Assembly: GCA_040388985.1 (NCBI GenBank)
Contig: JAZKAU010000002.1
Span: forward strand, 52,570 to 116,569
Length of the DNA stretch: 64,000 nt
Origin: Patescibacteria group bacterium
GTDB lineage: Bacteria; Patescibacteriota; Minisyncoccia; Phycocordibacterales; Phycocordibacteraceae
Direction: 5' to 3'
Of this stretch, positions 9,522 through 29,262 are shown one piece after another (the stretch's first letter is position 1; every line of letters begins with the position of its first letter). Below the pieces are notes generated by a model, which saw only the letters and a list, made by a program, of their open reading frames with translations, searched no databases and had not been told where the DNA came from. The translations under genes and the position numbers were made by a program.

Positions 9522-9545
9522 ACAAGTAGTACGATAGCACGCGTA

Positions 9546-10301: not shown

Positions 10302-10509
10302 TTTGTCATTACAAATACAACAACATAAATATACGCCATTTCAACCAACAAGCAAGCCATTCTATAGCGTCCTGGCGAGCAGTTCTGTCACTCAGAATCG
10401 TTTGATGTGACTTCGCGATTTAGGTTTCCTTACACGGTCTGAGCCCTCATTCCTTAGGGACTCATATAGAACCAGCCGCTGGCTGAGCTTATAGGCGTAA
10501 TCAACCATA

Positions 10510-11637: not shown

Positions 11638-11661
11638 CGGATCAGCACGAGCGGCTCGTCA

Positions 11662-12795: not shown

Positions 12796-12873
12796 GAACT
12801 TGACTTTACTTATTTTGTGTCTCTATGTATATGTGTCGTCGACAGTCCGACAACTCAGATATATAGTGTCTAT

Positions 12874-13650: not shown

Positions 13651-13654
13651 GATC

Positions 13655-14521: not shown

Positions 14522-14524
14522 ATA

Positions 14525-15400
14525 TCAGATGCGCTTCTTCCCCAGTATGCCCTGGGGACGGAAGAGGAGGAACAGGATGAGCACGGTGAAGGCAATGGCG
14601 TCTTTCCATTCGCCGGATATCTGCCAGATGCCGAAGTTCTCTGCAAAGCCCAGCAAGAAGGCGCCGAGGAATCCTCCGTAGACGCTGCCGATGCCGCCGA
14701 TTATAGCCGCGATGACGCCCTTGAGGAGGATGAGGAAGCCCATACGCGGCTCGATACCCGTATCCATGCCGGCGAAGACGCCGGCGAGTCCGGCGACAGC
14801 GGAGCCGATGATGAACACAGCCCCGATGATCGAATTGGTGTCGATGCCCACGATCTTCGCGACTTCTTCGTCGTCGGAGACCGCGCGTACCGCGCGACCG
14901 AACGACGTCTTCGTGAGCACTAGTCGCAGCGCAATGAGGACAACGACCGAGGACCCCAAGATGATTGCCTGGACGCTCGTCATGACACCGCTTCCGAAGT
15001 GAATGATATGTGTCGCGCCCGTAAGCATTGCTAGCGTCCGGAACTGGCTCGTGAAGAGCATGGCGATGAGGGCTTCGACAGCCGTAAAGGCGCCGAGCGA
15101 CGCTACGAGAAGTACCAGATTCGAGGCACGCCGAGCGCGTAGCGGCCGGAAGATGAGGCGCTCGAAGCCGTATCCGACTAGGGCCGCAGCCGCCACTGCG
15201 CCAATCACCGCGACCCACACCGGCGCGCCAAGCGTACTCCCTAGGTAGAACGCAGTGTACCCGCCCACTGCAGCCAGGACGCCGTGCGCGAGGTTGAAGA
15301 ACCGGGTTGCGCCAAAGACCAGGTTGAATCCCATCGCCACCAGCGCATAGAGCGAGCCCGCGATAAGACTGTTAACGATGAGCTGCGGGACGATGTCCAT
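14525..15400 (-). CDS. livH: branched-chain amino acid ABC transporter permease LivH-like
   Basis: MDIVPQLIVNSLIAGSLYALVAMGFNLVFGATRFFNLAHG is the canonical LivH N-terminus. Confidence 0.85.
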   Translation of the reverse strand: MDIVPQLIVNSLIAGSLYALVAMGFNLVFGATRFFNLAHGVLAAVGGYTAFYLGSTLGAPVWVAVIGAVAAAALVGYGFERLIFRPLRARRASNLVLLVASLGAFTAVEALIAMLFTSQFRTLAMLTGATHIIHFGSGVMTSVQAIILGSSVVVLIALRLVLTKTSFGRAVRAVSDDEEVAKIVGIDTNSIIGAVFIIGSAVAGLAGVFAGMDTGIEPRMGFLILLKGVIAAIIGGIGSVYGGFLGAFLLGFAENFGIWQISGEWKDAIAFTVLILFLLFRPQGILGKKRI

Positions 15401-15460
15401 GTGTTCCCAGTATAAACGAGAAGGGCCGCATGCAATGCGGCCCTTCTCGAGAACTTCTGA

Positions 15461-16594
15461 CTACTGCGTGACTGGGACGATCTGTCCGTTCACGACCTGT
15501 TTGAGCACATACTCGCGCACGGCATCTCCATTTCTGTCTATCGTGAGCTGACCTGCTGCGCCCGGACGGTCTTTAACGGCGTAGAGTGCTCCTTTCACCG
15601 TATCCGGATTCGATCCATATGTAGTGATGAGATCGGTTAACAGGTGCACCGAATCGTACGTAGAAGCCCCGTAGATAGGCGGACTGCTAGGATCCATTGT
15701 TCCGAAACGCTTCGTATATGCATCGAGAAACGCTGCCGCTGCCGGTGAATTCTTGTCGAAGTTCACTTCTGCGAAGATGACCCCGTTGGACACGCCTGAG
15801 GTGAGAAGTGATGGGGTGGTCACTAATTCATTTGAGAAGAGAGGTGTCGTGATTCCCATATCCTTTACCTGACTCAGAAGGATCTGCCCACTTGCGGACG
15901 TATTTGGTACGAGATAGAGAGCATCAGGATTTGCTGCCTTCGCTTTCGTGAGCTGCGAACGGAAGTCCTTGGACGTCGTCTCGTATCCTTCCGAGGTGAC
16001 AATGGTGCCGCCGAGCTCTTTGAAGCGAGCTTCGAAGATATCCTTAAGTGCTTGGGCATAATCCGTCTGTTCGCTTATGACCGCAATGCTGCGATAGCCG
16101 CGACTCCAAATCGCTTCTGCCACTTTCTGGCCAGACGTAGCGTCCGACGCGAATGTCCGAAAGATGTAGTCTCCCGCCTTCGTGATGTCAGGACTTGAGG
16201 AGACTGGGGAGAGCAGGATGATATGCGCTGCTTCGGCGACGGGAGCTGCGCCGAGTGTTTCTCCGCTGCAGATGCCGCCGATGATGAATTTCACCTTGTC
16301 GATGTTGATCAGCTTCTGCGCAGCAGAAGCTGATGTCGGACCATCGCATCTTCCGTCTTCGTAGATGACCTCGTATTTCTGCGTGCTTGACGCATTCACT
16401 TCGTCAATGGCGCTCACGACGGCATTACGCGTCGACTCGCCGATAGGCGCCGCGTCTCCCGTGAGCGGCCCGATGAAGCCGATCTTTATGACACCGCTGC
16501 TTTGGGGCGCTGTGCGAGCAGTCCCCCACCACACGGCTCCCGCAAGGACGATAAGGGCGAGCACCGCCGCAAACGTCCGTTTCTTACTATTCAT
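15461..16594 (-). CDS. ABC transporter substrate-binding protein, LivK type (SBP 3)
   Basis: Signal peptide. IGFIGPLTGDAAPIG motif. 377 aa. Confidence 0.8.
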   Translation of the reverse strand: MNSKKRTFAAVLALIVLAGAVWWGTARTAPQSSGVIKIGFIGPLTGDAAPIGESTRNAVVSAIDEVNASSTQKYEVIYEDGRCDGPTSASAAQKLINIDKVKFIIGGICSGETLGAAPVAEAAHIILLSPVSSSPDITKAGDYIFRTFASDATSGQKVAEAIWSRGYRSIAVISEQTDYAQALKDIFEARFKELGGTIVTSEGYETTSKDFRSQLTKAKAANPDALYLVPNTSASGQILLSQVKDMGITTPLFSNELVTTPSLLTSGVSNGVIFAEVNFDKNSPAAAAFLDAYTKRFGTMDPSSPPIYGASTYDSVHLLTDLITTYGSNPDTVKGALYAVKDRPGAAGQLTIDRNGDAVREYVLKQVVNGQIVPVTQ

Positions 16595-16706
16595 AATCCA
16601 TGTAGCTATTTGTTAATAATCCACTGACGGAAATGCTATTGATTATATTGATTAGTGTCAAGAAATGTAGTATATTGTTGGCATTAGCCGACAACGATAC
16701 TAAACG

Positions 16707-17492
16707 ATGGCCAAGAACATACACGACGACTTCGCCGAGATACTAGAGTCCATCGGACTATCCGGACCCGAAGTACAGGTCTTCACGCTCCTCCTCGAGA
16801 GTACGGAGCCCATGCGAGCCACTCCCCTCTCGCGGAAGCTGCGCATTAATCGCACGACGCTCTACGGTCTACTAAAATCTCTGACCGAAAAAGGCTTGGT
16901 ATCGTCTACCGATGAACGCGGCGTGCTCTGCTTCCAGTCCATACAGCCGGAGCTTCTCGTCGACTACATCGAGCGCGCAAAGGAGCGGCTTTCTAAGAAT
17001 GCTGAGCGCATGCGCACGCTCCTCCCGGCGATCATGAGTTCCCGGAAGTCGAATCCGAAGTATTACCCCCAGATCCAATTCTTCGATGGCGTCGAAGGTA
17101 TCAAGCAGGTATACGAAGATACCCTTCGTAACAACAGATCGAAGACGATGCACGGGTTCACTGACTACACGGCAGTACTGGACTGCATGGGGCTCGACTG
17201 GGCCGGGTACTACATCAAGAAACGGAGCGAGATGAACGTCCAGTCCTACACGATCGCTCCTGATTCCGTGAAAGCGCGCGACGCGAAACGACGCGACAGG
17301 CGAGAGCATCGCATTACCAAGATATTCCCGCCCGGCTACACCTTCGATATAGAGATAGCGGCGTATGACGATCGAACGATACTCGTATCGTTCGACGCCG
17401 AGCACCCGCTCGCGGTCCTTATCATCGACCAGAAGATAGCGGACACCATGCGTTCCCTCTTCCGATACGTAGACGATACTCTTCCCGCATAA
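16707..17492 (+). CDS. TrmB-family HTH transcriptional regulator (paralog 4)
   Basis: HTH ...RATPLSRKLRINRTTLYGLLKSLTEKGLV. C-terminal ...MRSLFRYVDDTLPA. Confidence 0.7.
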   Translation: MAKNIHDDFAEILESIGLSGPEVQVFTLLLESTEPMRATPLSRKLRINRTTLYGLLKSLTEKGLVSSTDERGVLCFQSIQPELLVDYIERAKERLSKNAERMRTLLPAIMSSRKSNPKYYPQIQFFDGVEGIKQVYEDTLRNNRSKTMHGFTDYTAVLDCMGLDWAGYYIKKRSEMNVQSYTIAPDSVKARDAKRRDRREHRITKIFPPGYTFDIEIAAYDDRTILVSFDAEHPLAVLIIDQKIADTMRSLFRYVDDTLPA

Positions 17493-17582
17493 CGAAGAAC
17501 TGACACCGAGTCGCCCGTCGTGGGTAACATAGGAACAAAAGCGCCTCTTCCGAGGCGCTTTTGTTCCTATGACTTTTAGAAA

Positions 17583-18713
17583 TTATTGCGGAACGGTGAC
17601 TGCCTGTGCATTCTTTACGATCTTCACGTCGTAGGTCGCAACCTTCAGATCGCCACTCGAGTCGAAGCTGATATCCGGAAAGGAGACACCGGCTTTGTAA
17701 TCGAGAGCTTTGAGACCAGCGATAATGTCTTTGGAATCAGTTCCCTTCTGTGCGATCACCTGTGTGAGCATCTTGAGCGCATCGTACCCGAGCGGGGTAA
17801 CGATGTTGATCACCGTATCTCTTCCGTTTAATGCTTCTACTTTCGACTTGAAGTCCTCAGGACTCCCGACTGCGCCGGTAACGAACATCACGCCTTCCGC
17901 TGCAGGCGAGGTCAGGAACTCTTTCGCGATGAGCGCGTCTCCTCCGAACACGGGCGTGGTCATGCCAAGGTCGCGGAACTGCTGCGTTGCGATTGCTGCA
18001 AGTGCCGGATATGCCGGCATATAGATAAGGTCCGGCTTAGCTGCCTGTATCTTTGCCGCTACCGACTTAACGTCAGTCGCGTCCTGTGCCACGCCTTCAT
18101 TCATGACCACGGTGCCGCCGAGTTCGGTAAAACGCTCGTTAAAGACTTTTTGTAGCCCTTGACCCCAGTCGTTCTGAACATACATCACGGCCACCTTTCT
18201 CTTTCCCAGCGTGTTGTAGATGTACTCTGCCGAGAACCTCCCTTGGAAAGTATCTGTGGGATAGCTGTTGAATATCGAATCATCCCCTCCGGTAAGGCCG
18301 GGGGCAGACGCGCCGACAAGAAGCACCGGGATATTCGCAGCGCGTGCGATGGGTATTGCGGGCCCCGCCGCCGCTGAGCAGACCGGACCGATGATTGCGG
18401 TGACTTTGTCGACGCTAATCAGCTTCTGGAATACAGAGACACCGGTCGAGTCGCATTTATCATCCTCATATACGAGCTCGACCATGCGTCCCTTGATACC
18501 TCCTGCGTCGTTTATTTCCTTGAGTGCCAGTTCAAGTCCAGCTCTCCCGGCCTCACCATAGCTTGCCGCCTCCCCTGAGAGCGGCATAGAGACTCCTATG
18601 CGTATAGGGCTGGTATCAGGTGCAGGCTTACCTCCCTTGAGGAGCAACCAACTCCCAACGATCACCAGGACCATGACTACGACTGTCCCGAGCGTCTTCT
18701 TATTCTTGTCCAT
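17583..18713 (-). CDS. ABC transporter substrate-binding protein, LivK type (SBP 4)
   Basis: Signal/TM. IGVSMPLSGEAASYG motif. 376 aa. Confidence 0.8.
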   Translation of the reverse strand: MDKNKKTLGTVVVMVLVIVGSWLLLKGGKPAPDTSPIRIGVSMPLSGEAASYGEAGRAGLELALKEINDAGGIKGRMVELVYEDDKCDSTGVSVFQKLISVDKVTAIIGPVCSAAAGPAIPIARAANIPVLLVGASAPGLTGGDDSIFNSYPTDTFQGRFSAEYIYNTLGKRKVAVMYVQNDWGQGLQKVFNERFTELGGTVVMNEGVAQDATDVKSVAAKIQAAKPDLIYMPAYPALAAIATQQFRDLGMTTPVFGGDALIAKEFLTSPAAEGVMFVTGAVGSPEDFKSKVEALNGRDTVINIVTPLGYDALKMLTQVIAQKGTDSKDIIAGLKALDYKAGVSFPDISFDSSGDLKVATYDVKIVKNAQAVTVPQ

Positions 18714-18816
18714 AAATTCCGACAGGTATTACTAGTGGTATGCCTGCAAAATATACCTATCTTGACAAGAGTCAATGGCTTGTAGCATAATTGTTGATAT
18801 AATCCAACAACACGAC

Positions 18817-19602
18817 ATGGCTCAACAAATACAAGCTACTTTGACAGGCATATTCGAGAACCTCGGACTCTCATCCAGCGAGATACCTGTTCTCCTCTTC
18901 CTGCTTGAAAGCGCGAACGGTCTGCGCGCCACTGAGATAGCGCGCAAGACCCGTGTGAATCGCACGACGCTCTACGGCATATTGAAGAGCCTGACTTCCC
19001 GGGGCCTCGTATCTTCTTCGGAGGAGAACGGCATCATGCGCTTCCAATCCATACAGCCGCACCAGCTCACCGCCTATATCGAAAGCGCCAAGCAGCGACT
19101 CGAGAGCGATACGAAACGCTTGGATCAAGTCATTCCTGCGCTTGCGCATGCTCGCAAGGCTAAAGACGAGCAATATCCGCAGATACAGTTCTTCAGCGGC
19201 GTCGAAGGTATCAAGCAGGTATACGAAGACACCCTGCGGGATAACCCCTCGAAGGCTATATATGGATTCTTCGACTACGAGGCGACGCTCAAGCTTATGG
19301 ATACAGAGTGGCCTAATTACTATATTAAAAAACGAACCGAAGCAGGTATCGAGTCGCACACTATCGCGACTTATAGCCCGCTGACGCGCACCTTGAAGGA
19401 GTTCGACAAGGATTATTTACGCGTAACGAAGGAGTTCCCCGAAGGATTCTCCTTCGCCATGGAAATCAGCGCTTACGGAGATAAGACGATGCTCATATCG
19501 TTCAACGAAGATCATCCGCTCGCCATAATCATTAAGGATGCGAGGGTAGCGGAGACGATAAAGACTCTCTTCCGGTATATAGACAGCACGCTGCCAGATT
19601 GA
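18817..19602 (+). CDS. TrmB-family HTH transcriptional regulator (paralog 5)
   Basis: MAQQIQATLTGIFENLGLSSSEIPVLLFLLESANGLRATEIARKTRVNRTTLYGILKSLTSRGLV. C-terminus IKTLFRYIDSTLPD is close to paralog 4. Confidence 0.7.
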   Translation: MAQQIQATLTGIFENLGLSSSEIPVLLFLLESANGLRATEIARKTRVNRTTLYGILKSLTSRGLVSSSEENGIMRFQSIQPHQLTAYIESAKQRLESDTKRLDQVIPALAHARKAKDEQYPQIQFFSGVEGIKQVYEDTLRDNPSKAIYGFFDYEATLKLMDTEWPNYYIKKRTEAGIESHTIATYSPLTRTLKEFDKDYLRVTKEFPEGFSFAMEISAYGDKTMLISFNEDHPLAIIIKDARVAETIKTLFRYIDSTLPD

Positions 19603-19637
19603 GTCGCGGTCACTACGCGCTAAACCTTGTACGCGTC

Positions 19638-20423
19638 TTATTGTGCGCCTACCCACGACAACTCGAACATCATTCGCATCATGTTATGTATTGTTGGGTC
19701 CTCGATGATCACGCCGCTCGGCGTGTTGTTCTCGATATTCACGATAGACACCTTGTTCGTCCCGTAGACCGTAATCTCGCTCTTGTACGGGAATTGTTTT
19801 GCCGGGATATGTCTCATATTCGGCCAGAACTTCTTCGGGAGATGCGCGTATTGTGCCTTGATGAAACCCTTATCTTTTGCCGTATCAGGAACGATGCCGC
19901 GTGTCGTTATGCCGATTCGCCCTTTCTCTTTCTTATAGAACTTAAAGAAGTCTTCGGGGAAGAATTGGTCCAGGTAGCCTGCGTTCGCCCACGCGACCAT
20001 CTCGTACGGCTTTTCGACCCGGACATGGTCTTCATAGATGGAAAGTACTCCCTCCTTCCCTTCGAAGTACGTGATCTTCGGCTTATTGGGAACAAGGGTA
20101 TACATGCCTTCAAGGTCAGGCAGGAGTTCTTCGGCGGCCGCGAGCATTTCCTTGCCGCGCTCGACATTCATCTTCGCGAAGCGCAGCAGCTTCCGGGGCC
20201 GCTCTATCTGGTAATACAACTTCTTCCCTTTCTTGATCTCGGTCACGAGCCCTTTTACCGATAGGTCGAGAAGAATCTTGTATACCGTGCTTCGGTTAAT
20301 GCGTGCGTCTTTTGCAAGCGCAGAAGGATAGGCACCTCCCCGTTCCAGAAGCGTTACATAGACGACGGCAGCTTTATCCGACAGCCCTGCCTTCTTTACC
20401 TTCTCTACCAAGCGATCATCCAT
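19638..20423 (-). CDS. TrmB-family HTH transcriptional regulator (paralog 6)
   Basis: AGLSDKAAVVYVTLLERGGAYPSALAKDARINRSTVYKILLDLSVKGLV. C-terminus ...MRMMFELSWVGAQ. Confidence 0.7.
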   Translation of the reverse strand: MDDRLVEKVKKAGLSDKAAVVYVTLLERGGAYPSALAKDARINRSTVYKILLDLSVKGLVTEIKKGKKLYYQIERPRKLLRFAKMNVERGKEMLAAAEELLPDLEGMYTLVPNKPKITYFEGKEGVLSIYEDHVRVEKPYEMVAWANAGYLDQFFPEDFFKFYKKEKGRIGITTRGIVPDTAKDKGFIKAQYAHLPKKFWPNMRHIPAKQFPYKSEITVYGTNKVSIVNIENNTPSGVIIEDPTIHNMMRMMFELSWVGAQ

Positions 20424-20605
20424 GGCCGCATACTATGGCTCAAATCAAAATGTGTCAATTCGTAGGAACAGATTTGCGTAAAATGGACTGAAATCCTGTA
20501 TCTGCTTGTATGTATAGAATTATTTTGTTATTTCAAAATACCAAATTTGACATTGATGATACAAATGTGGCGTTACCGTCTACTCACCTAATTGTCCGCG
20601 CTGCT

Positions 20606-21700
20606 ATGCAAAACACTATAAAAATCGTCGCGGTCCTCGTCGTTCTCGCGCTTATCGCCTTCGGGATTTCGCTGATCTCGCGGCCGAAGAGCGACACGAC
20701 CGTGGTCCTTGGCGCCACCCTACCCCTCACCGGAGACCTAGCCTTTCTGGGCGAGGGATATAGAAACGGAATGAACTTGGCGCTTTCGGAGCTCGGAGAT
20801 ACGAAATTCAAGTATAAGATCGTATTCGAAGACGATAAGTTCGATCCTGCGACCGGTGCTACGACGGCAAATAAGCTCATCTCTGTCGACCATGCTGACG
20901 GACTATTCTCGTTCGGCTCTCCGGTCGGCAACGTCGTCAGTCCGTTAGCCCAGAAGAACAACATTGTACATATAAACGGTATAGCCTCTGATCAGAACGT
21001 TGCCAAAGGAGACTACAACTTCGTCCACTGGACTCCGCCCTACGAGGAGTCGAAGCTCCTCATCTCGGAGCTGCAGAAACGAGGCATCAGTCGCGTTGCC
21101 ATATTCGTGACGAATCAGCCAGGCGCACTCGCAGTGGCAGACCAGGTAAGCACTGACCTGAAAACGAGCGGCATCCAGTTAGTAGGATACGAGACCATCA
21201 ATCCTGGAGAGACTGATATGCGGTCGCACGTAGCTAAGGTTGCTGGTTCGAAGCCGGACATGTACATACTCTTGTCCATGTCCCCTGAGCTCGAGATACT
21301 TACGAAACAGATCAAGGAGCAGGGCATAACGACGCCGCTTACCTCTATCGAGTCCTTCGAGTGGACCACGCAGCCGCAGATGTTTGAGGGCATGTGGTAT
21401 ATAAATGCTGCCGATCCGTCTCCTGCATTCGTGGAGAAATATAAAACTGCATACGGACAGAGCCCGACCGTGGGAGCCGCCAACGGCTATGATGCCGTGA
21501 TGCTCTTCGTTCACGCAGTCGAAACGTCAGCACAAGGGACGGGTAAGCCCAGCGAGGAAGACATAAAGAATGCTCTTCTGAATGTTCGGGACTATAGCGG
21601 CGCGGTCGGTGAACATCTCTCAGTCGACCGGGACGGGCTAATTGTATCTAAGGCAGTAGTGCGAATCATCAAGGACGGCAAGCCCGTTACGGTGAAGTAA
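20606..21700 (+). CDS. ABC transporter substrate-binding protein, LivK type (SBP 5)
   Basis: MQNTIKIVAVLVVLALIAFG signal/TM. LGATLPLTGDLAFLG motif. Start set to ATG 20606 (ORF track starts at 20510). Confidence 0.75.
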   Translation: MQNTIKIVAVLVVLALIAFGISLISRPKSDTTVVLGATLPLTGDLAFLGEGYRNGMNLALSELGDTKFKYKIVFEDDKFDPATGATTANKLISVDHADGLFSFGSPVGNVVSPLAQKNNIVHINGIASDQNVAKGDYNFVHWTPPYEESKLLISELQKRGISRVAIFVTNQPGALAVADQVSTDLKTSGIQLVGYETINPGETDMRSHVAKVAGSKPDMYILLSMSPELEILTKQIKEQGITTPLTSIESFEWTTQPQMFEGMWYINAADPSPAFVEKYKTAYGQSPTVGAANGYDAVMLFVHAVETSAQGTGKPSEEDIKNALLNVRDYSGAVGEHLSVDRDGLIVSKAVVRIIKDGKPVTVK

Positions 21701-21771
21701 GTTCAGGGGAGAAGGCCTGACAAAAGCGAAACGCCCGCGAAGCGGGCGTTTCGCTTTTGTCAGGAGATGAC

Positions 21772-22923
21772 TTACTTCACGTACGGCACCATCTTGCCGC
21801 CCGTGACCGTCTCAGGACTATGTCCAGAGACAGGATCACCATTGGCGCCGATGGTAACCGCGCCGGAAGCTCCCTGCCAGTCTTTTACGCTAGTGTGCAG
21901 CCACTTCGCGATCTTCGTGCCATCATAACCTACGGCCGCAATGGCGTCGCGAACGAGATAGACGGAATCATACTCGGTCTGCGCATAGCTGAGATAGGGC
22001 GCGTCGGCTCCGTACTTCGTCTTGTACGCGGAAACCATCGCGGTGAATTTTGGATTGTCCTTCTGCGTACCGAACTCGGCTCCGAGCGCACCCTCAAGCT
22101 GCTTGGCATTCGCTGTTATCGTTGCCGGGTCGCCGATCGTAACATCGGTGAGCAGAAGAGGAAGCTTCCAATCAAGCTGCGCCATCTGCGGAAGAACGCG
22201 AGACGCGCTCGCAGGAGTCTGCGTATCTAGGAATACTGCATCCGGCTTCTCTCCCTGCACCTTCGTGATTATCGAGCGGAAGTCGGTAGTCGCAGTCGGG
22301 AACGACTCATTCGTCACGGTTCCGCCGAGCTTCGTGAAGGTCTCGGAGAACGCGTTATATATACCGACCGCATAATCGGTCTGTTCCTGGATGAACGCTA
22401 CCTTCCTCCACCCCTTATCCGTATACGCGATGTTCGCGAGGACTGCTCCTTGTGTCGCGTCGGACGGATAGTTACGGACGAAGTAGTCGCTGATCGCGGT
22501 GAGCTTCGGGCTCGACGAACCGGACGAGATGACCGCGACCTTTGCTCGCTCCGCTACCGGCACTGCTGAGAGCGATTCGCTCGAGCAGAATCCGCCGATG
22601 ATCACCTGGACCTTGTCGATGTTCACGAGCTTCGAAGCCGCGTTCGCTGCCGACGTCCCGTCGCACTTGCCGTCTTCGACGACGAGTTCCATCTGCTTGC
22701 CGTCGATACCGCCTGTGGCATTGATCTCATCGGTCGCGAGCTGCATAAAATTCTTCGCAGGCTCGCCATATGACGCTGCATCTCCCGTGAGCGGGAGGAT
22801 GATGCCGACCTTGTACGTGTCACCGACGGCGACAGGTTCGTGATGCCGGGTGATAAGGAACCAGCCCCCGACTACCACGATTACTGCGATAAGAACCCAG
22901 ACCCATTTCGGAAATCCTTCCAT
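21772..22923 (-). CDS. ABC transporter substrate-binding protein, LivK type (SBP 6)
   Basis: N-terminal TM. VGIILPLTGDAASYG motif. 383 aa. Confidence 0.8.
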   Translation of the reverse strand: MEGFPKWVWVLIAVIVVVGGWFLITRHHEPVAVGDTYKVGIILPLTGDAASYGEPAKNFMQLATDEINATGGIDGKQMELVVEDGKCDGTSAANAASKLVNIDKVQVIIGGFCSSESLSAVPVAERAKVAVISSGSSSPKLTAISDYFVRNYPSDATQGAVLANIAYTDKGWRKVAFIQEQTDYAVGIYNAFSETFTKLGGTVTNESFPTATTDFRSIITKVQGEKPDAVFLDTQTPASASRVLPQMAQLDWKLPLLLTDVTIGDPATITANAKQLEGALGAEFGTQKDNPKFTAMVSAYKTKYGADAPYLSYAQTEYDSVYLVRDAIAAVGYDGTKIAKWLHTSVKDWQGASGAVTIGANGDPVSGHSPETVTGGKMVPYVK

Positions 22924-23071
22924 AGAGAGTTATATAAGGTGTTAATTGCCAATTCTGAAGAAAGTATGAACTGCGGCGAAAGCCTGTCAACACGCTCATG
23001 TGGGGTACTATTCTGAACCCGTCCAGAAATCCTGTATCTGCCTCGATTCGTCGGGAAAAGCTGATTTAGTG

Positions 23072-23857
23072 TCACGAGCCTGACACGGCCTTCTCACTAC
23101 GCTTCGCTTCTTTCCAGGCTAGCTCGAAAACTTTCTTCATAGCATGAGCAATCTCGGCGCTTTCTATAATGATGCCGAGCTTATCGCGCCATGAGGCGAT
23201 CATTATCTTATTGTCATAGATCTCGATGTCAGGAGTTATGTCGAATTCCTCTTTAGGTATGATGGCTATGTCACGCTTCTCATCCTTGTTATGTGAGGCG
23301 CGCTCAAGCGACGCAGTAGTCTCTGGGACGATGCCGCGAATGCTGATCCCTTTCTCTGCTCGACGTTCATAGTATCTAGGGAAATAGTTTCCGAGCGTCG
23401 CGTGCATATCTTCGTATGCGGCATACGCCACGATCGGTTCAGTTGCGGTCAATGTATCTTCGTACACTTCCTTAAGCCCCTCAATACCTTCGTAGAATCG
23501 TACTTGCGGCCGGTCCTGGACCGTATGCATCGCCCTTAGCTGCGGCAAGAACGCTTTGGCGGTACGCAACTGTTGTTCCGTCTCGGATAATCTGCTATCG
23601 AGAAGCGCGATAAGCTTATCCGGAGACTCGGCGGCATATTCTTCCTTCGGTTCTTTCCCCGACAATCGTACCAGATCCTTCTGAGCCAAGGCAGCGAGTA
23701 TGTCGTAGCCGGTAGTCCTGTTTATGCCGGCCTTACGTGATATCTGGGTTACAGTCCCGCGACCGAGCTTCAATATCGCCAGATATACGCCAACCTCTCT
23801 CTTAGAAAGTCCTAACGAGATAAGCGTCTTTACGATATTCTGTTGTCCCTTTTCCAT
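23072..23857 (-). CDS. TrmB-family HTH transcriptional regulator (paralog 7)
   Basis: LGLSKREVGVYLAILKLGRGTVTQISRKAGINRTTGYDILAALAQKDLV. C-terminus MKKVFELAWKEA. Divergent from radical SAM gene. Confidence 0.7.
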   Translation of the reverse strand: MEKGQQNIVKTLISLGLSKREVGVYLAILKLGRGTVTQISRKAGINRTTGYDILAALAQKDLVRLSGKEPKEEYAAESPDKLIALLDSRLSETEQQLRTAKAFLPQLRAMHTVQDRPQVRFYEGIEGLKEVYEDTLTATEPIVAYAAYEDMHATLGNYFPRYYERRAEKGISIRGIVPETTASLERASHNKDEKRDIAIIPKEEFDITPDIEIYDNKIMIASWRDKLGIIIESAEIAHAMKKVFELAWKEAKRSEKAVSGS

Positions 23858-24033
23858 ACGATAACCATACACTACGCTCTATATTTGTGTCAATATTACT
23901 CCACAATATACATTATATCCTTTATATAAAGGATATTCGAGTGTTCTTTTATTGACATAATTGACAGTAAGGAATAATATTGTATCGGGTGCAACTTGAC
24001 ACCAACCGATAATACAAACCAAGGAGGTCAATC

Positions 24034-25284
24034 ATGAACGTATTCCCTAACGTGGCAGCAACCCTGCCGCCTAAAGGTCAGATTCCGCACAGGTATCGCC
24101 TGATGGTCAACAAATGGAGCTTTCCGGAGGACCGGATCGGCGAAACCGTTACGGCCCACGGCGAGACCATCAAGAAGATGCTCACCCTCGATATCAACAT
24201 TCCCGAGACCGGCTTCGCAGTCCTCGTCAACGCGCAGGCACCAGGATCGGACGCAGCCAAGCGCACGTTCGTGAAAAGCTATCCTTGTCCGCACGCATGC
24301 CCTGGCTGCTTCAATAACGCCGACCTGTTCAACCCGATCATGTCGCTCGAGGAGGTCTTCTCCGTCATCGACCAGGCCTGCGAACTGGGCCTGGAATCCA
24401 TGAAGTTCCTCGGTCCGGGGGAGCTGCTCGCCAATCCTCGAATGTTCTACATCCTCGACGAGCTGGCGAGGCGCAATATCGTCGCCGGCATCTTCACGAA
24501 GGCGGCAATGATGGGTAATGATATGTTGTCGCAGCACTATCACGGCATCGGCTCGGAAGAGCTGACGCGCCGGCTCGCGACATATCCCAACATTACCTTC
24601 CTGGTGGGCGGCCGATCCTTCGACCCGGCACTCGAGAATCGGTTCATTCCCCAGAACCGGCGCGAGTTCAGTGAGCGCTTCGACTACCACGCGGCACGCG
24701 GTCTCGCGATCGAGCGTCTCTGCGCGCACGGCATGAATGCCGATCTCATGCACCAACGGCTCGAGATCGCCTGCGCGCCGGTCACGAGCGAGAACATCGG
24801 CGGGTGCCTCGAGCTCTATCAATGGGGTACCGAACGCAATATCCCCGTGGTAATGCCGCCCACGATGGTAAGCGGCAAAGGCCATCGGCTGGAGAAGGCC
24901 GCTGCCGAGGTGCAGTTCGAAGACGACTATATCGAGCTTGCCGTAGCGGTCTACACCTGGGCTATCCAGCGCGGCGTCATGACCGTGGAGCAGTTGCTGC
25001 ATGAGGGCGCAGCACCCTACATCGGCATCGCTCCCTGCAACCAACTGACCCATGGCCTGTACATCCACTACGACGGTCAGGTGTGGCGGTGCCCCGGGAA
25101 CGACACTCCCGACTTCGTCGTGCACCACAATGTGCGCGAAGCTCCGTTGCGACAGATCTGGGTGAACAGCAGGAACTATGGCATTCAGGCCTTCAACAAC
25201 GGATGCGTCAAGGACGGCATATCGCTGCCAATGCGATTCTACAGCGAAGTGCCGGAGCGCGTGGTCGCGATGCTGAAGATCTGA
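24034..25284 (+). CDS. radical SAM protein (CxxxCxxC) with ~85-aa N-terminal extension and C-terminal Cys-containing (SPASM/twitch-like) region, function unknown
   Basis: SYPCPHACPGCFN is a C-x3-C-x2-C radical SAM cluster motif, followed by a Gly-rich FLGPGELL SAM-binding stretch. C-terminal CNQLTHGLYIHYDGQVWRCPGND...NNGCVKDG. Perfect SD AAGGAGG 6 nt upstream of the ATG. AT-rich promoter region 23873-24033. Confidence 0.7.
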   Translation: MNVFPNVAATLPPKGQIPHRYRLMVNKWSFPEDRIGETVTAHGETIKKMLTLDINIPETGFAVLVNAQAPGSDAAKRTFVKSYPCPHACPGCFNNADLFNPIMSLEEVFSVIDQACELGLESMKFLGPGELLANPRMFYILDELARRNIVAGIFTKAAMMGNDMLSQHYHGIGSEELTRRLATYPNITFLVGGRSFDPALENRFIPQNRREFSERFDYHAARGLAIERLCAHGMNADLMHQRLEIACAPVTSENIGGCLELYQWGTERNIPVVMPPTMVSGKGHRLEKAAAEVQFEDDYIELAVAVYTWAIQRGVMTVEQLLHEGAAPYIGIAPCNQLTHGLYIHYDGQVWRCPGNDTPDFVVHHNVREAPLRQIWVNSRNYGIQAFNNGCVKDGISLPMRFYSEVPERVVAMLKI

Positions 25285-25360
25285 GGCAGTGATTCGGTTC
25301 GAGTAATGACCTTTTTATGCGCCTGTCGGGAAACCGACGGGCGCATTTCATTTCCAGAAC

Positions 25361-26113
25361 CTACCGGCTCGGAAGCGAGTCCCAGATGACCTTGAAGAGG
25401 TTCTGTTGCATGCGCACGAGGGCTTCGGTCTCTATGACGATGGTCGTGACGGGATTGGTGAGCGGATGGATGACTATCTTACGGGGCGCGATAGCCATGT
25501 TTGCGTCGATAGTCGTTCCTTCCGGCAGTATGCGCACTTCTTCGCGATAGTTCTTCTCTGTCTTCTTATATGAGCGCGCGGTCTCTGAAGACACAAGGAT
25601 GACCTTGGTATGCACGTCTATGCGCAGCCGCCGCTCTATGAACGTCTTGAAATATTCCTTGTCGAAGTGATTCCACCGGTCCGGGTCGCCGATGACATAG
25701 TAGTCGTCACCACTGCGGAGATCCTGAAGCAGCTCATCATACGCACTTTTCATAGCTTCAACTCCCGAGTGATACCGGATGATGGAGTCGTTACCGCGCA
25801 GCGTATACAAGGCTTCGAGCTCCGGGAAGAACGACTGCAGCGCGTTCTTCTGCTCATCGAGCATGCGTTCGAGGCGTGCAGGGTTCTCCGCTACCGGAAA
25901 TTCCTTGAATCCTCTCTGCTCGACGGATACCAGTCCCTTTGCCTTCAGAGTCTCGATGACGTGGTAGATAGTCGTCCTCTTCACACCCGACTGGAGCGCA
26001 ATCTTTAGGATAGTGGTGGGGCCAAGCTCCAGCATGGCCAGATATACGGCTGCTTCGTGGTCTCCGAGCCCCGCGTGAGCCAGCATTCTCTGGAGTGATT
26101 CTCTGTTTTGCAT
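25361..26113 (-). CDS. TrmB-family HTH transcriptional regulator (paralog 8)
   Basis: AGLGDHEAAVYLAMLELGPTTILKIALQSGVKRTTIYHVIETLKAKGLV. C-terminus ...QQNLFKVIWDSLPSR. Confidence 0.7.
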   Translation of the reverse strand: MQNRESLQRMLAHAGLGDHEAAVYLAMLELGPTTILKIALQSGVKRTTIYHVIETLKAKGLVSVEQRGFKEFPVAENPARLERMLDEQKNALQSFFPELEALYTLRGNDSIIRYHSGVEAMKSAYDELLQDLRSGDDYYVIGDPDRWNHFDKEYFKTFIERRLRIDVHTKVILVSSETARSYKKTEKNYREEVRILPEGTTIDANMAIAPRKIVIHPLTNPVTTIVIETEALVRMQQNLFKVIWDSLPSR

Positions 26114-27407: not shown

Positions 27408-27482
27408 ACCTGGAATCGAACCAAGATCAAGAGCTTAGAAGTCTCCTGCTCTATCCATTGAGCTATAGGGGCGAAGCGAGGT
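27408..27482 (-). tRNA. tRNA-Arg (TCT)
   Basis: Acceptor GCCCCTA/TGGGGGC, D-arm GCTC-AATGGATA-GAGC, anticodon loop CTTCTAA (TCT), T-arm CTTGG-TTCGATT-CCAGG, encoded CCA. One mismatch in the anticodon stem. Confidence 0.75.
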
Positions 27483-27573
27483 CGAACGAGCCCCCACATG
27501 CCTATATATGGGAGCAGTATTAGCCTAGCCGCCTTGAGGCGACGGGTCAATGAATCTTTGAGGAACCTAGGGA

Positions 27574-28347
27574 CTAGTGCGCACTGGTGCCGGGAGGCAC
27601 GGGACGGTCAGGCGTTACGAAGGCGAAGGTGTCGCCCTCCCCTACGGCAAATAGCATGCCGTCGCTCTCAAGACCCTTGAGTTTGCGGGGCGCAAGATTG
27701 GTGACGAATGAGAGTTGGCGACCCACTAATGACTCGGGTTCCGGAACATAGGCGGCGATGCCGGACACTATCTGGCGGGGCGCAGCCTCGCCCACATCTA
27801 TCATCAGACGCAGGAGCTTGTCAGTCTCGGGCACGCGTTCGGCTGAAAGCACGGTTCCGACCTTTACTTCGATTTTCGCGAAGTCGTCGATGGTGATCTT
27901 TGCAGGTGCGGCTTCTGGAGCCTCCGTCTCAGGCTTTGACGGCTCCGGACGCTGCGCCGTGCGTTCAAGGTAACTCGTGAGAATGAGGGCGGCAGCGGAG
28001 GCATCGACATCCGGCGAGCCTTCCATGCGCGTGCCATCCGGGAAGCGTCTGGCTTCCTGGGTCGTATAGGTTTCAGGCTCGTAGTTGATCGGAATGCCTG
28101 TGCGCCCGGCGAGCGCCGTGCCGAGCTCTCGCGCGCTCTGCGCAACGGGATTATCACCGCCTGAAAAATTGCGGGATTCGCCGATAACTACAGCTCCGAC
28201 ATTCTTCTCCTTTATGAGCACCGCGAGTTCATCTGCGAGCTTGGGTGTGGTCGTAAGCACGCCGTGCGGGAATCCCATCTGTCCGGCTTCGTCAGACAGG
28301 GCTATGCCCGTCTTCTTCGTTCCGAAATCTATGCCGATATATTTCAT
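27574..28347 (-). CDS. fusion protein: RuvX/YqgF Holliday-junction-resolvase-like domain + C-terminal tRNA-binding (CsaA/Trbp111/EMAP-like) domain
   Basis: N-terminus MKYIGIDFGTKKTGIALSD...AVVIGE (YqgF/RuvX signature). C-terminus DDFAKIEVKVGTVLSAERVPETDKLLRLMIDVGEA...RQIVSGIAAYV...LVGRQLSFVTNLAPRKLKGLESDGMLFA (OB-fold tRNA-binding domain pattern). Start set to MKYIG ATG (rc 28345-28347). Confidence 0.6.
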   Translation of the reverse strand: MKYIGIDFGTKKTGIALSDEAGQMGFPHGVLTTTPKLADELAVLIKEKNVGAVVIGESRNFSGGDNPVAQSARELGTALAGRTGIPINYEPETYTTQEARRFPDGTRMEGSPDVDASAAALILTSYLERTAQRPEPSKPETEAPEAAPAKITIDDFAKIEVKVGTVLSAERVPETDKLLRLMIDVGEAAPRQIVSGIAAYVPEPESLVGRQLSFVTNLAPRKLKGLESDGMLFAVGEGDTFAFVTPDRPVPPGTSAH

Positions 28348-28413
28348 GTCAGCATAGTACCTTATTCTCTCCTCGTTCGCGCCTACGCACGGATATGCTA
28401 TCCTTGGTCGCAT

Positions 28414-28731
28414 ATGGACGCTATATTCACGCAGTCAGGTCTAGGCGATGCTATCGCTAACCACTTCGGAACGACTACGGTTCTCGTAGCCGTCTTGCTC
28501 GCTGCTGTCACGCTTTGGAGCCTTGCCTGGAAAGGAGTCGCACTCTGGTTCTCGGCACGCAACCACCAGAAGGCCTGGTTCGTCGTCATGCTAATCGTGA
28601 ACACGCTCGGCATCCTCGAGATCATCTATCTCCTCTTCTTCCGTCGCGACAAGCAGCCGGGAGCAACGAAGTCACTCTTCAACAATCCGCTTCCGGACGA
28701 GACTGACGCTGAAGTTGCTTCAGCGCCGTAA
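28414..28731 (+). CDS. hypothetical small membrane protein
   Basis: MDAIFTQSGLGDAIANHFGTTTVLVAVLLAAVTLWSLAWKGVALWF...MLIVNTLGILEIIYLLFF has two TM helices. Start trimmed from ORF-track 28264. Confidence 0.4.
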   Translation: MDAIFTQSGLGDAIANHFGTTTVLVAVLLAAVTLWSLAWKGVALWFSARNHQKAWFVVMLIVNTLGILEIIYLLFFRRDKQPGATKSLFNNPLPDETDAEVASAP

Positions 28732-28737: not shown

Positions 28738-29262
28738 TTGAATGGGGTTCTGGGAGGAGTGCGTGAGTGGTATAATAGGTTAGTGACTGAAAAATACCGA
28801 CGGAATGCAAATACCGCATGCAGGACCTGTCTGAAGCCAATTTATCGAAGACCATCTGAGGTAAAGTCTGGGAAGGTTTTCTGTAGTTCATTGTGCTACG
28901 GAGCGGCAAACCGCAAAGAGAAACCCTGCGTTATTTGTGGGAAACTTATTCTTGCTAGAGCAAATAAGAAGACTTGCAGCCGAGAGTGTGCTAATCGAAA
29001 CCGAGCAGGAATCAAGTACAAGATTGGGCGGCCGCGTGATAAGTCTAATACGATACGCACGATCAAGCTGCATCTCATCAATGAGCGCGGATCGGAATGT
29101 GAACGTTGCGGATACGACAAGCGAGAGATACTACACGTTCATCACAAAGACCGAGATCGCTCGAACAATGAGGTGTCGAATCTTGAGCTCATCTGTCCGA
29201 ATTGCCACTATGAGGAGCATTATCTGGAAAAAAGCTGGCTTGATGGTAGACTGACCTCCTAA
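28738..29262 (+). CDS. HNH endonuclease with N-terminal Cys-rich zinc-ribbon repeats (paralog of 4984-5478)
   Basis: CRTCL...CSSLCY, CVICG...CSREC then HVHHKDRDRSNNEVSNLELICPNCH HNH motif. Ends 4 nt before tRNA-Ser. Confidence 0.8.
   Translation: MNGVLGGVREWYNRLVTEKYRRNANTACRTCLKPIYRRPSEVKSGKVFCSSLCYGAANRKEKPCVICGKLILARANKKTCSRECANRNRAGIKYKIGRPRDKSNTIRTIKLHLINERGSECERCGYDKREILHVHHKDRDRSNNEVSNLELICPNCHYEEHYLEKSWLDGRLTS

What the first reader, a model, noticed from the sequence alone, without database searches (positions are those of the whole stretch)
27574..28347. Fusion of RuvX/YqgF resolvase-like nuclease domain with a C-terminal OB-fold tRNA-binding (CsaA/EMAP-like) domain
The N-terminal ~140 aa match YqgF/RuvX (pre-16S rRNA nuclease / putative Holliday junction resolvase). 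The C-terminal ~110 aa match the Myf/CsaA tRNA-binding domain found at MetRS or PheT C-termini. I do not know this domain combination as a standard architecture. It may target the nuclease to tRNA or rRNA substrates. The gene is next to tRNA-Arg(TCT).
Basis: partly seen in the sequence, partly recalled or inferred. Interest (0 to 1): 0.5.

Follow-up and report, generated by a model that had tools for sequence, protein, structure and literature searches.

The report
RuvX nuclease fused to tRNA-end binder
This gene really does join a RuvX/YqgF nuclease to a domain that grips the 3' end of tRNAs; in related uncultured bacteria (Paceibacteria) the two parts are neighbouring genes that have fused repeatedly, which hints that this poorly understood nuclease works on tRNA-like RNA ends.

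Summary
Window 27574-28347 (minus strand) is one 257-aa ORF with a RuvX/YqgF nuclease domain (aa 1-129), a disordered Ala/Pro/Glu-rich linker (aa 130-150), and a Trbp111/MetRS-C-type OB domain (aa 151-257). It is not a frameshift artefact: the identical protein occurs in other assemblies, and more than 100 protein clusters (41-78% identity, Parcubacteria/Paceibacteria) share the architecture.

In 38 related reference genomes the two domains are separate, adjacent, often overlapping genes (for example an 8-nt ATGGATAA stop/start overlap). Fused and split forms interleave in the tree, with at least 9 inferred transitions. The window gene is therefore a Rosetta-stone fusion of a conserved ruvX-trbp pair.

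The nuclease triad (D7/E92/D115) and the pocket residues that bind a 3'-terminal adenosine (K177, R221, S228, M231) are essentially invariant.

Best reading (moderate confidence): a dimeric RNase whose OB module captures 3'-CA ends, such as tRNA CCA tails. Main rival: a neutral fusion of co-transcribed neighbours.

The adjacency to tRNA-Arg(TCT) reflects conserved synteny, not a demonstrated link. No paper describing the fusion or the gene pair was found. Novelty: new variant of known kinds.

The parts
27574..28347 (-). Complete CDS of the RuvX-Trbp fusion protein (257 aa plus TAG stop at 27574-27576)
   Evidence: ORF list and sequence. Both Pfam domains lie in one frame. An identical protein was called on NCBI contig JAWVHB010012230.1 and in Logan SRR26324622.
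27961..28347 (-). RuvX/YqgF RNase H-fold nuclease domain (aa 1-129). Catalytic triad codons: D7 (28327-28329), E92 (28072-28074), D115 (28003-28005).
   Evidence: PF03652 and TIGR00250 score above their cutoffs. The domain aligns to E. coli YqgF 1nu0, B. subtilis 1vhx, M. tuberculosis RuvX 7ess and D. radiodurans YqgF 7w89. Foldseek TMt is 0.7-0.84. The triad is invariant in 129 fused and 38 split homologues and matches the D/E/D triad defined in PMC9601230.
27898..27960 (-). Flexible Ala/Pro/Glu-rich interdomain linker (aa 130-150, ...TAQRPEPSKPETEAPEAAPAK)
   Evidence: AlphaFold pLDDT is about 56-57 for aa 131-150 and below 50 for aa 136-144, and pTM is 0.48. Across 129 fused proteins the linker is 7-62 aa long (median 19). 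Identity to the window among close relatives is about 21%, against 68% (N domain) and 84% (C domain).
27577..27897 (-). Trbp111/MetRS-C-type OB-fold domain (aa 151-257). 3'-end pocket codons: K177 (27817-27819), R221 (27685-27687), S228 (27664-27666), M231 (27655-27657).
   Evidence: PF01588 and TIGR00399 score above their cutoffs. Best PDB sequence hits are the MetRS C-terminus and Trbp111 (8vtz/1pyb, E about 1e-23). Foldseek TMt is 0.86-0.90. Residues equivalent to Trbp111 K33, R75, S82 and M85 are invariant or nearly so. Their roles come from PMC11286949.
27398..27472 (-). tRNA-Arg(tct), same strand, 101 nt downstream. This is context, not shown to be functionally linked.
   Evidence: ARAGORN and Rfam. 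No promoter-like or terminator-like site was predicted between the gene and the tRNA. In relatives the same tRNA lies 2.5-3.5 kb downstream, after a pilM-like gene block.
28414..28731 (+). Divergently transcribed DUF5652 membrane-protein gene, a recurrent upstream neighbour (context)
   Evidence: PF18893. The same neighbour is called in L081, L082 and L083, and its ORF family (fam11) occurs in 10 of the fetched loci.

Best explanation
The gene encodes a two-module enzyme that arose by in-frame fusion of a conserved, translationally coupled ruvX-trbp gene pair of Paceibacteria (Parcubacteria, Patescibacteria/CPR). Shown: the N-terminal module is an RNase H-fold RuvX/YqgF nuclease with an intact Asp-Glu-Asp triad. 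The C-terminal module is a Trbp111/MetRS-C-type OB fold that retains the pocket residues which, in Trbp111, clamp the 3'-terminal adenosine of the tRNA CCA end. It also retains the N- and C-terminal segments that form the Trbp111 homodimer interface. A non-conserved flexible linker of about 20 residues joins the two modules. Inferred: the protein is a homodimer held together by the OB domains, with two nuclease domains on flexible tethers. The OB dimer captures single-stranded 3'-CA-OH ends, above all the CCA tails of tRNAs or tRNA-like RNAs. This would raise the local substrate concentration for the RuvX RNase, in the way the same OB domain lowers the Km for tRNA when it is appended to MetRS. 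Because the 5' and 3' ends of a tRNA lie side by side in the acceptor stem, the tether would place the nuclease near the 5' side or acceptor end of the bound RNA. YqgF enzymes have reported 5'-3' exo/endo RNase activity. The most likely role is therefore RNA maturation or surveillance, not Holliday-junction resolution. In relatives with split genes the same job would be done by a non-covalent RuvX-Trbp complex made in equal amounts by coupled translation.
For: Architecture and integrity. Not an artefact: the identical protein occurs in other assemblies. More than 100 clusters at 90% identity carry both domains, and about 16-20 clusters at 50% identity do so among 1.84 billion representatives. 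Deep-branching fused genes were verified as single ORFs at the same locus. Operon origin: all 38 adjacent two-domain loci among 80 reference-genome loci are split. Of these, 12 have stop/start overlaps of 4-14 nt and 13 have gaps of 0-30 nt. Recurrent fusion or fission: the window's fused clade has 95% bootstrap support, the neighbouring split clade has 87%, and Fitch parsimony needs at least 9 state changes in all 100 replicates. Both activities are under selection: D7/E92/D115 and K177/R221/S228/M231 are essentially invariant in 129 fused and 38 split sets, whereas the linker is unconstrained. Residue roles, 3'-CA specificity, the dimer interface and the Km-lowering role of the OB domain in aaRS fusions come from PMC11286949. 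The YqgF triad, RNase activity, 16S rRNA role and monomer/dimer issue come from PMC9601230. A canonical RuvB and RuvC are encoded elsewhere in the window, and RuvA in the syntenic relative, so RuvX is not needed as the Holliday-junction resolvase.
Against: No biochemical data exist for any member, and substrate, dimerisation and RuvX-Trbp contact are all inferred. The whole region is highly syntenic in these compact genomes, so conserved adjacency alone is weak evidence of a functional link. Overlapping frames make fusion mechanically easy. The pair is not universal: L069 keeps trbp without ruvX, L038 keeps ruvX without trbp, and L027 and L040 have genes inserted between them. The Phe that stacks on C75 in Trbp111 is Lys or Arg here, so specificity for the penultimate C may differ. 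RNase P protein is present, so ordinary tRNA 5' maturation probably does not need this enzyme. AlphaFold gives no defined interdomain contact (pTM 0.48).
Confidence: 0.45

Rival explanations
1. Neutral or merely tolerated fusion of two co-transcribed neighbours with independent jobs. RuvX does its usual housekeeping task (for example 16S rRNA 5' maturation). The Trbp module acts separately as a general tRNA 3'-end chaperone or as a trans-acting 'MetRS beta subunit'-like cofactor. The fusion adds no new targeting.
For: The whole neighbourhood, including tRNA order, DUF5652 and the pilM-like block, is conserved, so adjacency may simply reflect frozen synteny. Stop/start overlaps of 4-14 nt mean a single indel can fuse the frames, which could explain recurrent fusion without selection. 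Some lineages keep only one partner or tolerate insertions between the genes. Stand-alone Trbp proteins exist in other Patescibacteria in unrelated contexts. AlphaFold predicts no interdomain contact.
Against: Fused forms persist through large, diverse clades. The window's clade has 95% bootstrap support and dozens of 90%-identity clusters, all with in-frame linkers. At least 9 transitions were inferred, yet the two genes almost never drift apart. 25 of 38 split pairs lie within 30 nt of each other or overlap, the arrangement typical of subunits made in equal amounts.
Confidence: 0.3
2. The OB domain serves mainly as an ultra-stable dimerisation module. It would turn a monomeric YqgF nuclease into a dimer able to make paired cuts in Holliday junctions or other branched DNA, as dimerisation does for M. 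tuberculosis RuvX. 3'-CA DNA tails might serve as an additional handle.
For: The Trbp111 dimer interface segments (residues 1-15 and 90-111) are retained and conserved here (aa 149-159 and 236-257). Dimerisation distinguishes HJ-resolving MtRuvX from monomeric EcYqgF and DrYqgF. Trbp111 binds DNA 3' tails as well as RNA tails. Trbp111 has been used as an engineered dimerisation tag (PDB 7d8r/7d8s).
Against: The window encodes RuvC and RuvB, and RuvA is present in the syntenic relative, so a dedicated resolvase system already exists. If only dimerisation mattered, the 3'-end pocket residues K177, R221, S228 and M231 would not need to stay invariant. In the split state, dimerising Trbp would not dimerise RuvX unless the two also bind each other.
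Confidence: 0.2
3. Artefact: a sequencing or assembly frameshift has merged two genes in this window.
For: Relatives have two overlapping genes, so one indel would fuse them. Two database 'fusions' (P0096, P0100) have garbled, out-of-frame junctions consistent with such errors.
Against: The window junction is a clean 22-aa linker with both flanking domains intact. The identical protein occurs in other records. More than 100 independent clusters have in-frame linkers of 7-62 aa. Fused genes P0115 and P0079 were each verified on two contigs from different sources, and P0005 and P0118 as single ORFs on long contigs.
Confidence: 0.02

Closest known systems
Stand-alone RuvX/YqgF (E. coli YqgF, B. 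subtilis YrrK, M. tuberculosis RuvX, D. radiodurans YqgF)
   Same: Same RNase H-like fold, same Asp (beta1) / Glu (end of beta5) / Asp (alpha3) triad and same length for the nuclease domain. Scores are above the Pfam and TIGRFAM thresholds.
   Different: Canonical RuvX is a single-domain protein of about 140 aa. Here it carries a C-terminal OB domain, or in relatives is translationally coupled to one. The 'GLPxNMDG' motif of E. coli YqgF is replaced by 'GESxxFxG'. Identity to solved YqgF structures is only about 23-32%.
Aquifex aeolicus Trbp111 ('MetRS beta subunit') and the C-terminal domain of dimeric MetRS
   Same: About 43% identity to Trbp111 and TMt 0.86-0.90. The 3'-A76 pocket residues (K33, R75, S82, M85 equivalents) and the dimer-interface segments are conserved. 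The score is just above the TIGR00399 cutoff.
   Different: The domain is attached to a nuclease, not to an aminoacyl-tRNA synthetase, and it is not free-standing. The C75-stacking Phe78 is Lys or Arg. Full-length MetRS models score far below their cutoffs (117 against 598 bits).
[quoted passage not shown]
   Same: The same modular logic applies: a small OB domain that binds tRNA 3' ends is appended to a partner to recruit tRNA (discussion of PMC11286949).
   Different: The fusion partners discussed in PMC11286949 are aminoacylation, scaffold or trafficking proteins. A nuclease partner was not found in the searchable literature. Here the OB domain is the dimeric Trbp111 type, not the monomeric pseudo-dimer EMAPII type.
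Tex / Spt6 family (YqgF-like domain plus S1 OB-fold domain in one polypeptide); recalled from general knowledge, not tested beyond Pfam
   Same: It is a precedent for a YqgF-type RNase H-fold domain sharing a polypeptide with an OB-fold RNA-binding domain.
   Different: The OB class is different (S1, not Trbp/EMAPII), the proteins are much larger and multidomain, and the YqgF-like domain is usually considered non-catalytic. Pfam reported only RuvX and tRNA_bind for this protein.
CsaA export chaperone
   Same: Same OB fold and dimeric organisation; Foldseek TMt is about 0.85.
   Different: CsaA-specific models score far below their cutoffs (45.7 against 119.65 bits, and 53.2 against 171 bits). 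The context is not secretion-related here, although one unrelated Patescibacteria locus (L033) has a stand-alone trbp directly after a SecA-like gene.

Membership tests
RuvX/YqgF nuclease (PF03652, TIGR00250) | Profile score above the curated threshold | tested here: met
   PF03652 scores 86.2 bits against 29.2. TIGR00250 scores 52.1 against 43.25.
RuvX/YqgF nuclease (PF03652, TIGR00250) | RNase H-like fold (five strands, three helices) | tested here: met
   The AlphaFold model is confident for the domain outside the 101-109 loop (block-mean pLDDT 76-96 over aa 1-90). Foldseek TMt is 0.80 to 1nu0, 0.81 to 7w89 and 0.71 to 7ess.
RuvX/YqgF nuclease (PF03652, TIGR00250) | Three catalytic carboxylates: Asp on beta1, Glu at the end of beta5, Asp on alpha3 (PMC9601230) | tested here: met
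   D7, E92 and D115 align to the conserved Asp, Glu and Asp positions of E. coli and D. radiodurans YqgF. They are invariant in 129 fused and 38 split homologues.
RuvX/YqgF nuclease (PF03652, TIGR00250) | Single-domain stand-alone protein of about 130-170 aa | tested here: not met
   The protein is 257 aa with an added linker and OB domain. Split relatives do meet this feature.
RuvX/YqgF nuclease (PF03652, TIGR00250) | Metal-dependent nuclease activity (RNA 5'-3' exo/endo, or HJ cleavage) | not testable with these tools
   Requires biochemistry.
Trbp111 / MetRS C-terminal tRNA_bind OB domain (PF01588, TIGR00399) | Profile score above the curated threshold | tested here: met
   PF01588 scores 92.6 bits against 27. 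TIGR00399 scores 120.6 against 116.65.
Trbp111 / MetRS C-terminal tRNA_bind OB domain (PF01588, TIGR00399) | Residues that bind the 3'-terminal CA (Trbp111 K33, R75, I77, S82, M85 for A76; F78 for C75) | tested here: met
   K177, R221, L/I223, S228 and M231 are conserved in at least 128 of 129 fused proteins. The exception is the F78 equivalent, which is K or R (118 of 129). The A76 pocket is therefore met and the C75 stacking residue is not.
Trbp111 / MetRS C-terminal tRNA_bind OB domain (PF01588, TIGR00399) | Homodimer formed by N-terminal (1-15) and C-terminal (90-111) segments | tested here: inconclusive
   Both segments are present and conserved (aa 149-159 and 236-257). Oligomeric state could not be predicted or measured with these tools.
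Trbp111 / MetRS C-terminal tRNA_bind OB domain (PF01588, TIGR00399) | Binds tRNA / 3'-CCA ends | not testable with these tools
   Requires binding assays.
Methionine--tRNA ligase (the name given to several database homologues) | Class I catalytic core (HIGH/KMSKS Rossmann fold) in the same protein, or a full-length model score above the cutoff | tested here: not met
   NF008900 scores 117 bits against 598 and NF001100 scores 112 against 587, and only the last ~130 positions of each model match. There is no catalytic domain. No MetRS gene lies in the window or in the fetched flanks.
CsaA export chaperone | Score above the CsaA-specific model cutoffs | tested here: not met
   TIGR02222 scores 45.7 bits against 119.65. 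NF007496 scores 53.2 against 171.
EMAPII / Arc1p / AIMP1-type OB | Monomeric pseudo-dimer with an extra C-terminal structural half-domain | tested here: not met
   The protein ends where Trbp111 ends. Matches to 1euj, 1fl0 and 4r1j cover only about 100 of about 165-175 residues (TMt 0.53-0.58).
RuvC Holliday-junction resolvase | RuvC profile match and a role in RuvABC | tested here: not met
   A separate bona fide RuvC (51017-51484, PF02075, 124 bits) and RuvB (46706-47698) are encoded in the window. The target protein hits RuvX, not RuvC.

The most novel reading that the evidence does not exclude
RuvX-Trbp, fused or as a coupled pair, is a previously unrecognised RNase guided by tRNA 3' ends. 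On this reading it defines a lineage-wide RNA maturation or tRNA quality-control step in Paceibacteria. It would also give natural 'Rosetta-stone' evidence that the physiological substrates of the enigmatic, often essential YqgF/RuvX family are CCA-ended RNAs and not Holliday junctions.
Probability: 0.3. Interest if true: 0.7.

Novelty: new variant of a known kind. Interest (0 to 1): 0.5.

Why it matters
YqgF/RuvX is nearly universal in bacteria and essential in several model species. Its real job is still disputed: Holliday-junction resolvase, 16S rRNA 5'-end nuclease, or antitermination factor (PMC9601230). A whole bacterial class that couples this nuclease to a module now known to read the 3'-CA end of tRNAs, and repeatedly fuses the two, is independent comparative evidence for an RNA-end-directed role. 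It also yields a simple in vitro test using a recombinant 257-aa protein, ACCA-ended RNAs and point mutants. In addition it extends the set of partners of the widespread Trbp/EMAPII OB fold from synthetases and scaffolds to a nuclease. Finally, it shows that database names for these proteins ('methionine--tRNA ligase subunit beta', 'tRNA-binding protein', 'Holliday junction resolvase RuvX') each describe only half of the protein.

Tried and rejected
1. Possible script bug: when the reference loci appeared split, I suspected my ORF script. Direct three-frame translations and domain-wise tblastn confirmed genuinely separate genes.

2. Programmed frameshifting at the ATGGATAA overlap to make a fused product in split species: considered and rejected as unsupported. 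I did not see a slippery motif in the overlap, and termination-reinitiation coupling is the simpler reading.

3. MetRS form: I looked for a MetRS gene in the window (KMSKS/HIGH motifs) and in all fetched Patescibacteria flanks (blastp with four MetRS sequences), to test whether MetRS has lost its C-domain. None was found, and the question stays open.

4. First regex-based linker statistics matched only 10 sequences. They were replaced by an alignment-based count.

5. Rfam scan of the whole window and folding of the gene-tRNA spacer (z = -0.68): nothing besides tRNAs.

6. Promoter/terminator scan: no site between the gene and tRNA-Arg, and counts were at chance level.

7. tRNA CCA check: only 3 of 9 tRNA genes encode a full CCA. 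This is not informative for the mechanism.

8. Five literature queries combining YqgF or RuvX with Trbp111, tRNA-binding, CPR or Parcubacteria returned nothing.

9. Immediate tRNA-Arg adjacency as a functional clue: rejected, because relatives have a pilM-like gene block of about 3 kb in between.

The absence of fused loci among its 80 loci therefore says nothing about how rare they are.
Full report
**1.

On the minus strand, 27574-28347 is one open reading frame of 257 codons plus a stop, beginning MKYIGIDFG. A longer version from an ATG at 28413 is possible. Homologues and the gene calls in other assemblies start at 28347.

- Pfam places RuvX (PF03652) on aa 1-128 (E 3e-24) and tRNA_bind (PF01588) on aa 161-254 (E 1.6e-26), both far above the gathering scores.
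- NCBIfam agrees: TIGR00250 RNAse_H_YqgF scores 52.1 against 43.25, and TIGR00399 metG_C_term scores 120.6 against 116.65. Models for full-length MetRS, CsaA, PheT and YtpR all fall far below their cutoffs.
- PDB sequence searches hit MetRS C-termini and Aquifex Trbp111 for the C-half (E about 1e-23). For the N-half they hit E. coli YqgF, B. subtilis YrrK, M. tuberculosis RuvX and D. radiodurans YqgF.
- tRNA-Arg(tct) lies 101 nt downstream on the same strand.

**2. It is not an artefact and not a singleton**

The identical 257-aa protein is called on an NCBI metagenome contig (L081) and in a Logan read-set assembly (L082), with the same neighbours.

A search of 5.8 billion proteins returned 1130 hits. 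Nearly all of the 120 listed (116) carry both Pfam domains, at 41-78% identity and about 240-330 aa. The named ones come from Parcubacteria, Paceibacterota or the Patescibacteria group. Their annotations are inconsistent: 'methionine--tRNA ligase subunit beta', 'tRNA-binding protein', 'Holliday junction resolvase RuvX', 'putative transcription antitermination factor YqgF'.

An exhaustive HMMER scan of 1.84 billion 50%-identity representatives found about 16-20 representatives with a full-length two-domain match. The other strong hits are stand-alone RuvX (~130-140 aa), stand-alone Trbp (~110-140 aa) or MetRS C-termini.

Fused genes from distant branches (P0005, P0079, P0115, P0118) were confirmed as single ORFs at the same genomic position. 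P0115 and P0079 were each recovered on two contigs from different sources. P0079 is from a Parcubacteria genome assembly deposited in GenBank (GCA_001189215.1).

**3. The twist: relatives have two genes**

A scan of one genome per GTDB species returned 80 loci.

- In 38 of them, all Patescibacteria labelled Kaiser-, Nomura-, Taylorbacteria, Paceibacterota, Parcubacteria or Minisyncoccia, the RuvX and OB matches are adjacent on one strand, and in every one of the 38 they are separate ORFs. One further locus (L008) scored as split but looks truncated, and I left it out of later counts.
- In the closest split relatives, ruvX ends ...LTSYLS[R/H]THG* and trbp starts inside the stop region. Five loci share an 8-nt ATGGATAA overlap.
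- Over all 38, 12 have overlaps of 4-14 nt, 13 have gaps of 0-30 nt and only 3 have gaps over 100 nt. This geometry is typical of translational coupling.
- Some split Trbp proteins (L004, L020) already carry a Pro/Ala/Glu-rich N-terminal extension that resembles the window's linker.
- Outside Patescibacteria the OB match is the C-terminus of a 640-690-aa MetRS.

On a tree of concatenated N and C domains (134 sequences), fused and split forms interleave. With 100 bootstrap replicates on 82 taxa:

- the window's fused clade has 95% support;
- the neighbouring split clade has 87% support;
- Fitch parsimony needs at least 9 fused/split changes in every replicate.

This is an NJ tree with weak deep nodes, and a few database fusions may be errors. 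P0096 and P0100 have out-of-frame junctions. The exact number is therefore soft, but multiple events are robust. The window gene is a Rosetta-stone fusion of a conserved gene pair.

**4. Surroundings**

Paceibacteria share a striking macro-synteny:

- upstream: tRNA-Lys(ttt) ... tRNA-Arg(ccg) and tRNA-Arg(gcg) ... tRNA-Ser(tga);
- then, divergently, DUF5652 in a subset of loci (10 of those fetched);
- then ruvX-trbp, an occasional VTT-domain gene, a pilM-like gene and two or three small genes;
- then tRNA-Arg(tct), tRNA-Leu(cag)/tRNA-Val(tac), tRNA-Leu(gag) and tRNA-His.

The window keeps the same tRNA order in reverse orientation. It lacks the pilM-like block, so tRNA-Arg(tct) abuts the fusion gene. 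It also has about 19 kb of regulator and binding-protein paralogues inserted further on.

No promoter-like or terminator-like site separates the gene from the tRNA. Rfam finds only tRNAs in the window, and the spacer does not fold unusually.

The pair is not absolute. L027 and L040 have genes inserted between the partners. L069 has trbp without ruvX, and L038 has ruvX without trbp.

**5. Anatomy**

AlphaFold gives two confidently folded domains, a low-confidence linker (pLDDT about 56-57 for aa 131-150) and pTM 0.48. There is no fixed interdomain orientation. Foldseek matches the C-half to Trbp111 and MetRS-C (TMt 0.86-0.90) and the N-half to RuvX/YqgF (TMt 0.7-0.84). No solved structure spans both halves.

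The YqgF catalytic triad is Asp on beta1, Glu at the end of beta5 and Asp on alpha3; alanine substitutions impair or abolish DrYqgF RNase activity (PMC9601230). It corresponds to D7, E92 and D115. These are invariant in 129 fused and 38 split homologues.

For the OB domain, the 2024 Trbp111-tRNA co-crystal study shows several points (PMC11286949):

- this fold binds only the single-stranded 3'-terminal CA of mature tRNAs;
- the contacts are K33, R75, I77, S82 and M85 for A76, and F78 for C75;
- it binds DNA tails equally well;
- it forms a very stable dimer through residues 1-15 and 90-111.

Through the alignment these residues map to K177, R221, L223, S228 and M231, each conserved in at least 128 of 129 fused proteins. 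The F78 equivalent is K224 (Lys or Arg in 118 of 129). F78A gave the mildest defect in that study. The interface segments (aa 149-159 and 236-257) are present and conserved.

The linker is 7-62 aa long (median 19) and rich in Ala, Pro and Glu. Among close relatives it is about 21% identical, against 68% for the N domain and 84% for the C domain.

**6. Mechanism**

Shown: an intact nuclease module, an intact 3'-end-binding module, a flexible tether, and an origin from a coupled operon.

Inferred:

- the protein is an OB-mediated homodimer carrying two tethered RuvX domains;
- the OB dimer captures 3'-CA-OH ends, above all tRNA CCA tails;
- this raises the local substrate concentration for the RNase, just as the same domain lowers the Km for tRNA when fused to synthetases.

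The tRNA 5' end lies next to the 3' tail, and YqgF enzymes have reported 5'-3' exo/endo RNase activity and a role at the 16S rRNA 5' end. A role in RNA maturation or surveillance is therefore the most economical reading. RuvB and RuvC are encoded elsewhere in the window, and RuvA in the syntenic relative, which argues against a need for RuvX as the Holliday-junction resolvase. RNase P protein is also present, so routine tRNA 5' processing probably does not depend on this enzyme.

I give this model about 0.45. The rivals are:

- a neutral or tolerated fusion of neighbours with independent functions, including a MetRS-cofactor role for the OB part (about 0.3);
- the OB domain acting mainly as a dimerisation device for a branched-DNA nuclease (about 0.2; partly compatible with the main model);
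- an artefact (about 0.02).

**7. Comparison and membership**

The N-half is a bona fide RuvX/YqgF domain by profile, fold and triad. It fails only the single-domain architecture. The C-half is a bona fide Trbp111/MetRS-C-type tRNA_bind domain by profile, fold and A76 pocket. Its dimer state is untested and the C75-stacking Phe is not conserved. The protein is not a MetRS or a MetRS subunit in any tested sense, and it is not CsaA, EMAPII-type or RuvC.

The general logic matches other fusions of this OB fold (MetRS, PheRS beta, TyrRS, Arc1p, AIMP1, tRip). The partner, a nuclease, is new as far as I could find. Tex/Spt6, which combine a YqgF-like domain with an S1 OB fold, are a loose precedent that I recall from general knowledge.

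**8. Novelty and limits**

Five full-text searches pairing YqgF or RuvX with Trbp111, tRNA-binding, CPR or Parcubacteria returned no paper. The sequences themselves are public under half-correct names. I therefore rate it a new variant of known kinds, of moderate interest.

Not tested: whether MetRS in these genomes lacks its C-domain; whether a second ruvX exists; the oligomeric state; any RuvX-Trbp contact; and any biochemical activity.

Noticed in passing
window 8059-26113: A block of about 18 kb holds 8 of the window's 10 paralogous TrmB-family regulator genes, interleaved with 6 paralogues of a ~376-aa putative secreted substrate-binding protein and two ABC ATPase genes. It sits between tRNA-Leu(cag) and tRNA-Arg(tct), which relatives separate by only ~0.1-4 kb (often under 2 kb). 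It looks like a lineage-specific expansion or insertion.
   Followed up: partly
window 28738-29262 and 4984-5478; also L004, L010, L014, L022, L023, L072, L075: Two paralogous HNH-endonuclease genes each directly abut a tRNA gene: tRNA-Ser(tga) at 29267 and tRNA-His at 4925-4998. The same family sits next to the same tRNAs in several relatives. This suggests mobile homing-type elements associated with tRNA genes.
   Followed up: partly
window 27473-27573, compared with L083 10835-13374: The pilM/pilN-like gene block that follows ruvX-trbp in nearly all relatives is missing downstream of the window gene. As a result tRNA-Arg(tct) is immediately adjacent to it.
   Followed up: partly
L033 1025-3987: In a different Patescibacteria lineage, a stand-alone 109-aa Trbp-type gene directly follows an 873-aa SecA-like ORF. 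This context recalls the SecA-associated chaperone CsaA.
   Followed up: no
L027 2072-3487; L040 9962-11658: The ruvX-trbp pair is interrupted by insertions. In L027 these are two small ORFs (102 and 89 aa, the second with an HTH/XRE-like N-terminus, toxin-antitoxin-like). In L040 it is one 246-aa ORF, and the Trbp of L040 also carries a large internal insertion.
   Followed up: no
P0096 and P0100 (alignment A1): Two database 'fusion' proteins have garbled junctions that match the out-of-frame translation of the ruvX 3' end in split relatives. They are probably frameshift errors or pseudogenes, not true fusions.
   Followed up: partly
L002 7-80: ARAGORN calls a tRNA with anticodon tta ('tRNA-Stop') at the very edge of a contig. 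It could be a suppressor-type tRNA or a miscall.
   Followed up: no
window tRNA genes: Only 3 of the 9 tRNA genes (His, Leu-gag, Arg-tct) encode a full 3' CCA. The others would need a CCA-adding enzyme.
   Followed up: partly
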